A DNA stretch of 64,000 nucleotides from a virus. Its lineage: Duplodnaviria; Heunggongvirae; Uroviricota; Caudoviricetes. The stretch is taken from the IMG/VR virus record IMGVR_UViG_2721755646_000005; one strand, given 5' to 3'. The position numbers were made by a program. Shown piece after piece: positions 30,001 to 33,000 of this stretch (positions are counted from its first letter, which is position 1; the number at the start of each line of letters is the position of its first letter).

Positions 30001-33000
30001 GCGGCGACAGTACCACGCCGTCCCCGGTGGAGCTGGTTTCCATGTTCCAGACAGGCAGCGTGGCCATCCGTGCGGAGCGCTGGATCAACTGGCGTCGTCG
30101 CCGTACTGCGGCGGTGGCGGTGATCACCGGAGTGAACTACGGCAGTGCGTCCGGCGGCTGAGTCTGATAAGGAGGACGGGAGGCGTGCGCCTCCCGTAAC
30201 AGGTTATGGCAAAGATCCGATATCTGCAGGGCACGCATGATGCCCGGGCCGGGGATATCCGTGATGTGGCACAGCCGTGTGCGGAGGTGCTGGTTCGCCT
30301 GGGAAAGGCGGAGTACATCACGGTGCGACGTCCGGCAGGTCAGAAAAAGAAACGTGATGCGGAGCATGGCGAATGTGGAACCTTTTACGGCGAACCCGAA
30401 AAAACCAGAAATCAGGACGTGACGTAAGAGAGGCGGGCTGGACCAGCCTGTTTCAGGCGGTGGCTGAGCCCTTTTCCGGCGCCTGGCAGCAGGGCGTGAA
30501 AGCCGATCCTGAAGCCGTCCTCTCCTTTCATGCGGTGTTTGCATGTATTTCGCTGATATCCCAGGATATCGCCAAAATGCGGCTGCGTCTTATGCAGACG
30601 GATGCGCATGGGATACGCAGGGAAACGCGCCGGGGGGATATTGCCCGCCTCTGTCGTCGTCCCAACGCCCAGCAGAACCGCATCCAGTTTTTTGAACTGT
30701 GGCTGAACGCCAAACTGCGTCATGGCAATACGGTGGTGCTGAAAATCCGTAATGCCCGGGGGCAGATCAAAGAACTGCGTATTCTGGACTGGAGCCGGGT
30801 TGAACCTCTGGTGGCGGATGACGGCGAGGTGTTCTACCGCATCACGCCGGACCGGAACTGCGGGATCACGGAGGCGGTGACGGTGCCTGCCCGGGAAGTG
30901 ATCCACGACCGGTTTAACTGTTTTTTTCATCCGCTTATAGGATTGCCGCCGGTGTATGCCGCCGGGCTGGCGGCCACGCAGGGGCATCATATTCAGGAAA
31001 ATTCGACGTCTTTTTTCAGAAATGGCGGCAGGCCGTCCGGGGTGATTGAGATCCCCGGCAGTATTACGGAAGAAAATGCGAAAAAACTGAAGAGCAACTG
31101 GGACAGCGGGTATACAGGCGAAAATGCGGGGAAAACGGCCATTCTGAGCAACGGGGCAAAATACAACCCCACGACGTTTTCACCGGTGGATGCGCAGACG
31201 GTGGAACAACTGAAGATGACCGCTGAAATTGTCTGTTCGGTGTTCCGTGTCCCGGCCTACAAGATTGGCGTGGGACAACCGCCTTCCAGTGACAACGTGG
31301 AGGCGCTGGAGCAGCAGTATTATTCCCAGTGCCTGCAGACGCTGATTGAGTCCATTGAACTGTTACTGGATGAGGCGCTGGAAACGGGGGAAAACGAGAG
31401 TACAGAATTTGATGTCACCACGCTGCTGAGAATGGACAGTGAGCGGCGCATGAAAACGCTGGGGGATGCGGTGAAAAATACGCTTCTCACGCCCAATGAG
31501 GCCCGTAAACGGGAGAACCTGCCGCCCCTGGCCGGCGGTGATGCACTGTATCTTCAGCAGCAGAACTACAGTCTGGAGGCGCTGTCCCGTCGTGATGCCC
31601 GTGAGGATCCGTTCGCGTCTGCCGGGAAAACAGTTTCATCACAGCTGCCTGACGGCGCATCTGACGGTAATAAGGCAATCAGTGAAACAGAGCATGATGC
31701 GGTGAAAGCGATGTTCAGGGGGGATACTGAGAAAATGACGGAACGGGAACTGTCCATTATTCGTGCACTGGGAGAAGAATTTTCCACAGTGCTGGCGGAT
31801 TTACAGCGCACATTTGAGGGGAAGATGGCCTCGCAGGCACAAGCGTTTGAAGAGAAACTGACTTCCCTGTCGGCGGTATTACAGAAGCATGTGACGGTGG
31901 ATGAGGTGCGTCCGGTTCTGCAGGCGATGGTGGATGACGCTGTGGGGGCCATTCCGGTACCGCGTGATGGTCGTGATTATGATCCGGATGTACTGCAGCA
32001 GGCGGTGAATGATGCGGTCGCAAATATTCCGCAGCCGGCGGACGGTAAAAGTCTCACCCCGGATGATGTGCGTCCGATGCTTGAACAGATGGTGAAGGAG
32101 GCTGTAAGCCATATCCCTGTTCCGCGTGATGGTCGTGACTACGATCCGGAAGTACTGCAGAAGGCGGTGAATGATGCGGTCGCAAATATTCCGCAGCCGG
32201 CGGACGGTAAAAGTCTCACCCCGGATGATGTGCGTCCGATGCTTGAACAGATGGTGAAAGAGGCTGTAAGCCATATCCCTGTTCCGCGTGATGGTCGTGA
32301 CTACGATCCGGAAGTACTGCAGAAGGCGGTGAATGATGCGGTCGCAAATATTCCGCAGCCGGCGGACGGTAAAAGTCTCACCCCGGATGATGTGCGTCCG
32401 ATGCTTGAACAGATGGTGAAGGAGGCGGTAAGCCATATCCCTGTTCCGCGCGACGGTCGTGACTATGATCCGGAAGTACTGCAGAAGGCGGTGAATGATG
32501 CGGTCGCAAATATTCCGCAGCCGGCAGACGGTAAAAGTCTCACCCCGGATGATGTGCGTCCGATGCTTGAACAGATGGTGAAGGAGGCGGTAAGCCATAT
32601 TCCTGTTCCGCGTGATGGTCGTGACTACGATCCGGATGTTCTGCAGAAGGCGGTTCTGGATGCGGTGAGTGCCCTGCCGGCTCCGCAGGACTGGCGTGAT
32701 GCCACGGCTCTGGAAATACTCCCCGCCATTGACGATCAAAAATCCTTTCCCCGGGGCACGTATGCCACACACCAGGGCGGACTCTGGCGGGCGTATGAAA
32801 AAACGCACGGGATGCGGGGATGGGAATGCCTGGTTGACGGGGTGGCGGATATTGACGTCAGCATGACGGGTGAGCGGTTGTTCTCTGTGGTGGTCCGGCA
32901 GAGCAGTGGCCAGCGTACGGAAAAAACATTTTCCCTGCCGGTGATGCTCTACCGCGGTGTGTTCAGAGCCGGTGAAACCTACCACCCCGGCGATACGGTG

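What the first reader, a model, noticed from the sequence alone, without database searches (positions are those of the whole stretch)
31906..32690. Portal ORF carries a 490-aa C-terminal extension built from 4.8 tandem 54-aa repeats
The HK97-type portal domain occupies only about the first 420 aa. The ORF continues through a 162-bp in-frame repeat array (units at 31906, 32068, 32230, 32392, 32554) and a unique C-terminal domain. The copies differ by a few mostly synonymous changes, which argues for a real, selected coding repeat rather than an assembly artefact. Repeat number is likely to vary between related prophages.
Basis: seen in the sequence. Interest (0 to 1): 0.5.

Follow-up and report, generated by a model that had tools for sequence, protein, structure and literature searches.

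The report
Portal fused to neighbouring repeat gene
The 913-residue "portal protein" of this E. coli O157 prophage is an ordinary phage portal joined, by one extra G in a run of Gs, to the separate gene that normally follows it: an uncharacterised, widespread head-module protein with a length-variable repeat rod and a sugar-binding-like tip.

Summary
ORF 30373-33114 (913 aa) is uninterrupted and contains 162-bp in-frame units at the stated coordinates. Copy number varies among relatives from about 0.8 to 6.8 units.

The "extension" is not native to the portal. In BP-4795, in many E. coli prophages and in every relative checked from other genera, the portal ends at about residue 454. Its stop codon overlaps the ATG of a separate gene (called X here). 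That gene is always found between the portal and head-tail adaptor genes.

In the window a G5 run has become G6 (31718-31723), which fuses the two frames. The G6 allele is real: it occurs at 1,363 places in 781 of 5,426 complete E. coli genomes and in phage 2851.

X has three parts:
- an N-terminal long helix;
- alternating 13- and 17-residue helices joined by Pro-rich linkers (the repeats);
- a conserved beta domain ending in a CBM5/12-like fold.

Its function is unknown. I infer a portal-vertex accessory fibre or tether. I found no evidence for programmed frameshifting.

Databases now call free-standing X proteins "phage portal protein", and some records call the ancestral split form a pseudogene.

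The parts
30373..33114 (+). Fused ORF, 913 aa (portal plus protein X). Identical to WP_077882900.1 of E. coli O157 strain 180-PT54.
30373..31734 (+). HK97-family portal part (aa 1-454). In the ancestral arrangement it would end ...AMFRGILRK* at the ATGA.
   Evidence: Pfam PF04860 aa 54-382; TIGR01537 aa 45-388; conserved portal tails in relatives
31718..31723 (+). G6 homopolymer, the fusion point. Relatives with G5 have two genes. In the G6 allele the -1 frame reads ...RGGY then TGA (31728-31730).
   Evidence: allele counts
31735..33114 (+). Protein X module (aa 455-913). Its ATG at 31735 is the start codon of the separate gene in all split relatives (BP-4795 ORF59).
31735..31905 (+). Unique N-terminal helical part of X (MTERELSIIRALGEEF...). 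Predicted as one roughly 50-residue helix plus a second helix.
   Evidence: AF2 model, (pLDDT about 85)
31906..32654 (+). Array of 162-bp (54-aa) tandem repeats, 4.3-4.8 units. Each unit is a 17-residue helix, a 12-residue Pro-rich linker (IPVPRDGRDYDP), a 13-residue helix and a second 12-residue linker (IPQPADGKSLTP).
32701..33111 (+). Conserved C-terminal all-beta domain of X (aa about 777-913).
   Evidence: AF2 pLDDT 95-97; invariant and near-invariant columns
32950..33111 (+). CBM5/12-like (chitin-binding-type) subdomain at the tip of the C-terminal domain.

Best explanation
The 913-aa ORF is a fusion of two adjacent genes, made by inserting one G into a G5 run (now G6, 31718-31723). Gene 1 is a normal HK97-family portal of about 454 aa. 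Gene 2 (X, 459 aa here) is a conserved, uncharacterised gene of this head module. It normally starts at an ATG that overlaps the portal stop codon (ATGA), which implies translational coupling. It always lies between the portal gene and the head-tail adaptor gene. The extra G moves the portal reading frame into X's frame 12 nt before X's ATG, so ribosomes read through into X. The 162-bp repeat belongs to X, not to the portal. Each 54-aa unit adds two short amphipathic helices and two Pro-rich linkers to a rod or tether between X's N-terminal long helix and its C-terminal beta domain, which ends in a CBM5/12-like fold. Because 162 is a multiple of 3 and the inner copies are nearly identical in DNA sequence, unequal recombination or replication slippage adds or removes whole units. 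This gives 0.8 to 6.8 units among relatives. What is shown: the fusion mechanism, that the split form is ancestral, the conserved gene order, the copy-number variation and the domain layout. What is inferred: X is a low-copy virion accessory protein that acts at the portal vertex, with an N-terminal helix as anchor, a repeat rod that sets its reach and a glycan-binding tip. This rests on its coupling to the portal gene and on the fact that it tolerates covalent attachment to the portal C-terminus. In the G6 allele, free X may still be made from the retained ATG at 31735.
Against: No experiment bears on X. Whether it is in the virion, and whether it sits inside or outside the capsid, is unknown. 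A portal C-terminus normally faces the capsid interior (general knowledge of portal structures), which fits poorly with an external glycan-binding fibre. The AF2 monomer model does not pack the repeats (pTM 0.34, linkers below pLDDT 50), so 'rod' is an inference. Pfam CBM_5_12 is below its gathering score (18.9 vs 26.2 bits). Internal initiation at 31735 in the fused allele was not tested. The same 300-nt haplotype is occasionally seen with both G counts, and the window's closest overall relatives (99.3%) are G5. The tract has therefore changed more than once or moved by recombination, which leaves some room for a regulated switch.
Confidence: 0.85

Rival explanations
1. Native portal extension: the portal of this phage group evolved its own long C-terminal repeat domain, comparable to the C-terminal barrel of the P22 portal, and the split forms are decayed pseudogenes.
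For: The ORF is continuous here and in 781 complete genomes. PGAP and several phage records annotate it as one portal protein, and some records call the split form a pseudogene. Phage 2851 carries the fused form.
Against: Every relative checked outside E. coli has two genes, with a conserved portal C-terminal peptide and a conserved ATGA junction. The family is overwhelmingly free-standing. G5 forms are the majority in the IMG/VR sample (82 vs 37), and they include the sequenced phage BP-4795.
Confidence: 0.04
2. Programmed recoding or a contingency switch: the G run is a functional slippery site (ribosomal -1 slip, or slippage during replication or transcription), so that both alleles yield a mixture of short portal, free X and portal-tethered X. 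The G5/G6 state sets the ratio.
For: A -1 slip of tRNA-Gly on the G5 run would produce exactly the fusion protein that G6 encodes. A -1 slip on G6 gives a short portal ending RGGY* (sequence). Identical flanks occur with both G counts. The window's nearest relatives by overall identity are G5. A second, distant portal-X fusion exists (P0231).
Against: There is no canonical X XXY YYZ heptamer in the zero frame. There is no stable structure 5-9 nt downstream: the only hairpin starts about 42 nt away and the fold z-score is -2.2. The G run is absent in all other genera, so there is no conserved recoding signal. Five or six Gs is short for high-frequency slippage (general knowledge of contingency loci).
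Confidence: 0.08
3. Sequencing or assembly artefact: the extra G, or the repeat number, is an error of a long-read assembly that demonstrably contains indel errors nearby.
For: The window has a 2.37-kb tandem duplication that no complete E. coli genome shares. One copy of it carries 11 single-base indels.
Against: The whole 2,742-bp ORF is 100% identical to NZ_CP015832.1. The G6 allele is found at 1,363 places in complete genomes and in phage 2851. There are no indels within the ORF relative to RefSeq.
Confidence: 0.03

Closest known systems
Phage BP-4795 ORF58 (putative portal, 454 aa) and ORF59 (hypothetical, 461 aa); same arrangement in Salmonella phage FSL SP-016 (SP016_00160 and SP016_00155)
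   Same: Same module, 95.7% DNA identity for BP-4795, same repeat array and C-terminal domain. The ATG of ORF59 is the window's M455.
   Different: G5 instead of G6, so there are two proteins with an ATGA overlap. The window is the fused derivative.
HK97-family portal proteins (gp3; PF04860, TIGR01537)
   Same: The N-terminal 454 aa is a full-length member.
   Different: HK97-type portals end after the crown region. None of the distant relatives of this module carries X in the same polypeptide.
P22 portal C-terminal helical barrel (from my own knowledge of the published structure)
   Same: A portal with a long, largely helical C-terminal extension that would lie inside the capsid.
   Different: The P22 barrel is a native, continuous coiled coil of the portal. 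Here the extension is a neighbouring gene fused by a frameshift mutation, it is segmented by Pro-rich linkers and it ends in a beta domain. No sequence similarity was seen.
SPP1 gp7 / Mu gpF minor head proteins (PF04233; from my own knowledge)
   Same: A gene immediately downstream of the portal gene. gp7 binds the portal and is a low-copy head component. X occupies the same genomic slot.
   Different: No PF04233 match in X and a different architecture. Binding to the portal is only inferred for X.
Accessory Ig-like or carbohydrate-binding domains added to virion proteins by frameshifting (Fraser et al. 2006; T7 10A/10B; from my own knowledge)
   Same: An accessory domain, probably glycan-binding, becomes attached to a core structural protein through a change of reading frame.
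   Different: In those cases the frame change is translational and programmed. Here it is a fixed genomic 1-nt insertion, and I found no recoding signals.
Segmented fibrous phage proteins with carbohydrate-binding tips (T4 fibritin; collagen-repeat and CBM tail fibres)
   Same: An N-terminal anchor helix, a shaft of short helical segments in variable number and a globular C-terminal domain. Fold matches are to the CBM5/12 domains of chitinases and to parts of phage fibre and tailspike proteins.
   Different: No sequence homology. The oligomeric state is unknown. The gene lies in the head module beside the portal gene, not among the tail fibre genes.

Membership tests
HK97-family portal protein | Full-length match to PF04860 / TIGR01537 above the curated cut-offs | tested here: met
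   PF04860 272 bits (cut-off 39.1), aa 54-382. TIGR01537 349 bits (cut-off 112), aa 45-388.
HK97-family portal protein | Polypeptide ends shortly after the portal fold, as in relatives of the same module | tested here: not met
   Relatives end at about aa 453-468. The window continues for another 459 aa because of the G6 insertion.
Coding tandem repeat (protein-level VNTR) | Head-to-tail units whose period is a multiple of 3, in frame, with copy number that varies among alleles | tested here: met
   Period 162, no indels. Frame 0. Alleles differ by whole 54-aa steps, 245-569 aa.
Coding tandem repeat (protein-level VNTR) | Purifying selection on the encoded peptide | tested here: met
   Units 2-4 differ at 1, 5 and 6 nucleotides, all synonymous. 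The alternating A/B half-unit motifs are conserved across the family.
Programmed -1 ribosomal frameshift site | Slippery heptamer X XXY YYZ in the zero frame | tested here: not met
   The zero-frame codons are AGG GGG GAT. Only a single-tRNA slip on GGG is possible.
Programmed -1 ribosomal frameshift site | Stimulatory structure 5-9 nt downstream | tested here: not met
   MFE fold of 31712-31810: no helix until about 42 nt downstream of the run, z = -2.2.
Programmed -1 ribosomal frameshift site | Conservation of the site in relatives | tested here: not met
   Other genera have AGAGGA, with no homopolymer.
Programmed -1 ribosomal frameshift site | Two protein products observed | not testable with these tools
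   Needs proteomics or a reporter assay. Virion MS data exist for phi330 (PXD061229, PMC12502783) but were not available here.
Contingency locus (phase-variable homopolymer) | Both tract lengths occur on otherwise identical backgrounds | tested here: inconclusive
   Two 300-nt haplotypes are seen with both lengths (17:1 and 12:2). The identical 39/40-nt flank occurs with G6 at 1,363 places and with G5 at 707 places. No phylogeny was built, and recombination among co-resident prophages is an alternative explanation.
CBM5/12 carbohydrate-binding module | Pfam PF02839 above the gathering score | tested here: not met
   18.9 bits in the window and 24.7 bits in P0121, against a cut-off of 26.2.
CBM5/12 carbohydrate-binding module | The CBM5/12 fold | tested here: met
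CBM5/12 carbohydrate-binding module | Binding of a carbohydrate | not testable with these tools
   Needs a binding assay.
SPP1 gp7 / Mu gpF minor head protein (PF04233) | Sequence match to the family | tested here: not met
   No PF04233 hit in the window protein or in 10 homologues.
Collagen-like phage fibre | Runs of G-X-Y triplets | tested here: not met
   None in the window protein. Some distant family members have short GxDGxDG tails after the C-terminal domain.

The most novel reading that the evidence does not exclude
The G run at the portal/X junction could be a working switch rather than a scar. G5/G6 changes, and possibly low-level -1 slippage on the run, would set how much X is made free and how much is covalently tethered to the portal crown. 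Phage populations would then carry virions with different portal-vertex equipment. The recurrent portal-X fusions (the E. coli G6 allele and the distant 1,237-aa P0231) would then mark a direct portal-X contact, and X would be a previously unrecognised portal-associated virion component found in hundreds of prophage lineages.
Probability: 0.1. Interest if true: 0.7.

Novelty: new variant of a known kind. Interest (0 to 1): 0.42.

Why it matters
First, the 860-913-aa "portal proteins" of Stx2c-type and other O157 prophages are fusions. The split form that some records label a pseudogene is the ancestral, normal state. This affects how prophage "defects" are scored in EHEC genomes.

Second, the fusion has contaminated annotation. 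Free-standing X proteins in Variovorax, Pseudomonas, Acidovorax and others are named "phage portal protein" although they have no portal domain.

Third, it singles out a large, uncharacterised protein family with a fixed place in one HK97-like head module. The natural fusion gives a testable prediction that it works at the portal.

Fourth, the 162-bp array varies widely in copy number and sits in several prophages per genome. Many database entries for this protein are partial proteins on contigs of only a few kb, which suggests that the array breaks short-read assemblies. It could also serve as a typing marker.

Tried and rejected
- Searching with X against the 90% protein clusters returned almost only partial E. 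coli "portal" fragments. It was of little use except to show that many entries come from contigs of only a few kb.
- PDB sequence search found only designed helical repeat proteins at E about 0.01.
- NCBIfam has no model for X. The local Pfam copy has none either. A precomputed PF28083 label appears on E. coli hits, but I could not look it up.
- The afdb50 fold library was unavailable.
- BFVD matches had low TM-scores (0.2-0.4) and mainly reflect the CBM-like tip.
It was redone with permitted rows.
- Literature searches for virion proteomics or discussion of this portal in BP-4795, 2851, phi330 and FSL SP-016 found nothing specific.
- The phi330 record has G6 but also four further indels (+2, +1, -1, -1) relative to the window. 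It is a manually assembled Sanger sequence (PMC12502783), so I did not use its three-ORF annotation as evidence.
- Asadulghani et al. 2009 (PMC2669165) score the portal as defective in Sakai Sp6, Sp9 and Sp12 and as intact in Sp10. I could not establish whether "defective" means the split form.
- The long antisense ORF 31879-33063 (394 aa) was dismissed as a by-product of the repeat.

Full report
**1. What is in the window**

ORF 30373-33114 (+) is open for 913 aa. Its first part is a complete HK97-family portal: PF04860 matches aa 54-382 with E 6e-81, and TIGR01537 matches aa 45-388 with E 2e-104.

TRF reports a 162-bp period, 4.3 copies, at 31960-32654, with 96% matches and no indels. Units 2-4 encode the same peptide and differ by 1, 5 and 6 nucleotides, all synonymous. 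Unit 1 has 9 non-synonymous codon differences from them. Unit 5 is a repeat for only about 33 aa.

The window is an E. coli O157 lambdoid prophage. The ORF is 100% identical to NZ_CP015832.1, where it is annotated as phage portal protein WP_077882900.1. It belongs to the 2851 / BP-4795 / 1717 / YYZ-2008 group of long-tailed Stx phages. The gene order is terS, terL, protease-MCP fusion, small ORF, portal, adaptor, head closure, gp10-like, gp17, major tail.

**2. The extension is a separate gene in the relatives**

In BP-4795 and Stx1_14040 the same region is annotated as two ORFs of 454 and 461 aa that overlap by 4 nt. Aligning the junction shows a single relevant difference: CAGGGGGGAT (G6) in the window and in phage 2851, against CAGGGGGAT (G5) in BP-4795 and Stx1_14040.

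With G5 the portal frame reads ...AMFRGILRK and stops at the TGA of AAAATGA. The ATG of that same ATGA starts the second protein (MTERELSIIRALGEEF..., or MNEREL...). With G6 (window 31718-31723) the portal frame runs straight into that second frame.

I then looked outside E. coli. Thirteen loci from one-genome-per-species contigs encode the C-terminal domain. They come from Phytobacter, Atlantibacter, Kosakonia, Enterobacter, Buttiauxella, Citrobacter, Kluyvera and others. In every locus where the junction lies on the contig:
- the open frame begins a few codons before MNEREL;
- the upstream portal of about 453 aa ends in a conserved peptide, ...KAMLRGLLTK*;
- the portal's TGA overlaps the ATG;
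- the DNA at this position is AGAGGA, so there is no homopolymer.

The same was found in the nine more distant IMG/VR relatives examined and in Salmonella phage FSL SP-016. It was also found in five neighbourhoods reached through a distant homologue: Variovorax paradoxus, Pseudomonas syringae and three metagenomic contigs. All five show TerL, protease/MCP, small ORF, portal (456-468 aa), X (its start overlaps the portal end by 8-20 nt), Phage_connect_1 adaptor, Phage_HCP.

The split arrangement with a conserved portal C-terminus is therefore ancestral. The 913-aa protein is a derived fusion caused by a +1 G.

**3. The fused allele is real and common**

- The G6 40-mer occurs at 1,363 places in 781 of 5,426 complete E. 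coli genomes, always under a "phage portal protein" annotation.
- The same flank with G5 occurs at 707 places in 366 genomes. Other G5 haplotypes were not counted.
- In 119 IMG/VR stretches, 82 are G5 and 37 are G6.
- G6 is confined to a few closely related haplotypes. Two 300-nt haplotypes are seen with both counts (17:1 and 12:2).
- The window's closest full-length relatives (99.3%, 2,741 bp) are G5.

The tract has therefore changed more than once, or it has been shuffled among co-resident prophages.

Intact and truncated X frames are about equally frequent in the two alleles: 53 intact and 7 truncated for G5, 22 and 4 for G6. There is thus no sign that the fused allele is decaying. Phage 2851 carries G6. 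Phage phi330 forms plaques (10^9 PFU/ml; PMC12502783) and is 99.7% identical to the window. However, its manually assembled Sanger record carries extra indels, so I did not rely on it.

**4. Copy number**

Intact X proteins come in lengths of 245, 299, 353, 405/407, 461, 515 and 569 aa. These are steps of 54 aa, or about 0.8 to 6.8 units, and they occur in both alleles. Phage and genome records span 2,742, 2,580 and 2,415 bp. The near-identity of the inner units at DNA level fits recent gain and loss by unequal recombination or slippage.

The alternation of two half-units is conserved across the family:
- type A: DGxSVTxxDVxP, then a helix, then PxP;
- type B: DGKDxDP, then a helix, then IPxP.

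Arrays differ greatly in length between genera. One distant member has about 20 units of 27 aa.

**5. What X looks like**

X belongs to a large family. A full HMMER scan of 1.84 billion representatives gave 616 clusters at E<=1e-30 and 2,646 at E<=1e-10. Most are free-standing proteins of 250-600 aa. No NCBIfam model matches it, and neither does any model in the local Pfam copy.

AF2 results:
- The C-terminal 169 aa gave a confident all-beta model (pLDDT 91.8).
- BFVD matches are collagen-repeat or CBM-containing phage proteins, at low TM-score.
- The whole module is predicted as a 50-residue N-terminal helix, then alternating 13- and 17-residue helices separated by 12-residue low-confidence linkers with no tertiary packing (pTM 0.34), then the confident beta domain.

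This is the layout of a segmented rod or tether with a globular tip that looks glycan-binding. It may need oligomerisation to fold, which I could not test.

**6. How it most likely works**

Shown:
- A 1-nt insertion in a G5 tract fuses the portal and X.
- The repeat belongs to X and varies by whole units.

Inferred:
- X is a low-copy virion accessory protein acting at the portal vertex. It is translationally coupled to the portal gene and not to the capsid gene. It always sits between the portal and adaptor genes. It tolerates covalent attachment to the portal C-terminus in a widespread allele, and a second, distant portal-X fusion exists (P0231, 1,237 aa).
- The repeat number would set the reach of the C-terminal domain.

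Unresolved:
- Whether X lies inside the capsid, where portal C-termini normally point, or outside, where a carbohydrate-binding tip would be expected.
- Whether free X is still made in the fused allele from the retained ATG at 31735.

**7. Rivals**

Native extension is contradicted by the comparative data above.

Programmed frameshifting has some logic. A -1 slip on G5 would give exactly the G6 protein, and a -1 slip on G6 gives a short portal ending RGGY*. But there is no canonical heptamer, no nearby downstream structure and no conservation of the run in other genera.

Sequencing error is excluded for the allele, although not at read level for this particular assembly.

**8. Comparison with what is known, and novelty**

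The sequence itself is already in the databases. I found no paper that discusses the junction.

Existing annotation points the other way. Several records call the split form "portal protein (pseudogene)". Asadulghani et al. score the portal as defective in three of the four Sakai prophages that have this head module (PMC2669165), but I could not verify whether that refers to the split form. NCBI names free-standing X proteins from Variovorax, Pseudomonas, Acidovorax and Pseudoduganella "phage portal protein". That is almost certainly spill-over from the fusion.

I rate this a new variant of known kinds of event: a homopolymer indel fusion and a coding VNTR. It affects an unusual protein and exposes an uncharacterised family. 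Interest is moderate.

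Noticed in passing
window 33030-35401 and 35402-37773: A 2.37-kb direct tandem duplication. It covers the last 85 nt of the portal ORF, the adaptor, head-closure, gp10-like and gp17 genes, and most of the major tail gene. The first copy differs from NZ_CP015832.1 only by 11 single-base indels from 34231 onwards. These fuse gp10 and gp17 into one 262-aa ORF (33800-34588) and break the major tail gene. The second copy is 99.98% identical to RefSeq. None of 5,426 complete E. coli genomes spans the junction. It looks like a long-read assembly artefact or a private rearrangement.
   Followed up: partly
homologues P0270, P0277, P0280, P0301, P0303, P0306, P0313: Free-standing X proteins of 350-470 aa from Variovorax, Pseudomonas, Acidovorax and Pseudoduganella carry the source name 'phage portal protein'. 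No portal domain is recorded for them, and a real portal gene lies immediately upstream in the two neighbourhoods checked (Variovorax and P. syringae). The name was probably propagated from the E. coli fusion. Two Enterobacteriaceae members (P0308, P0311) are named 'phage gp6-like head-tail connector protein'.
   Followed up: partly
phage records AP012540, AP012538, AP012530: The split form of the gene is annotated 'portal protein (pseudogene)' in Stx2 phage records, although the split form is the ancestral arrangement.
   Followed up: partly
window 28224-30161: A single 645-aa ORF combines the prohead protease (Peptidase_S78, aa 48-152), a probable coiled-coil scaffold-like segment and the HK97-type major capsid protein (aa 386-635). 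This fusion accompanies the portal-X pair in four of the five distant neighbourhoods. In the Variovorax prophage the protease and capsid are separate genes.
   Followed up: no
window 34937-35419 (and its intact copy in 35402-37773): The C-terminal part of the major tail subunit carries an Ig-like domain (Ig_3 / I-set, E 3e-9). This is a second accessory surface domain in the same virion module.
   Followed up: no
window 31879-33063, minus strand: A 394-aa antisense ORF runs through the repeat array. Its periodic sequence mirrors the sense-strand repeat, so it is most likely a by-product and not a gene.
   Followed up: no
window 21504-22516 and 25657: Compared with NZ_CP015832.1, the region upstream of the lysis genes (end of the SASA esterase gene to the DUF1378 gene) is a patch of dense substitutions and small indels. 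A single-base deletion lies at 25657 in the gap between the HNH endonuclease and terS genes. The window therefore comes from a different genome or prophage copy than that record.
   Followed up: no
P0231 (1,237 aa, metagenomic representative): A second, distant portal-X fusion. It has about 20 tandem 27-aa units (helix plus LPEPEPLPDI linker), and its junction sequence does not resemble the conserved portal tail. It is either an independent fusion or a frameshift error in a metagenome assembly.
   Followed up: partly
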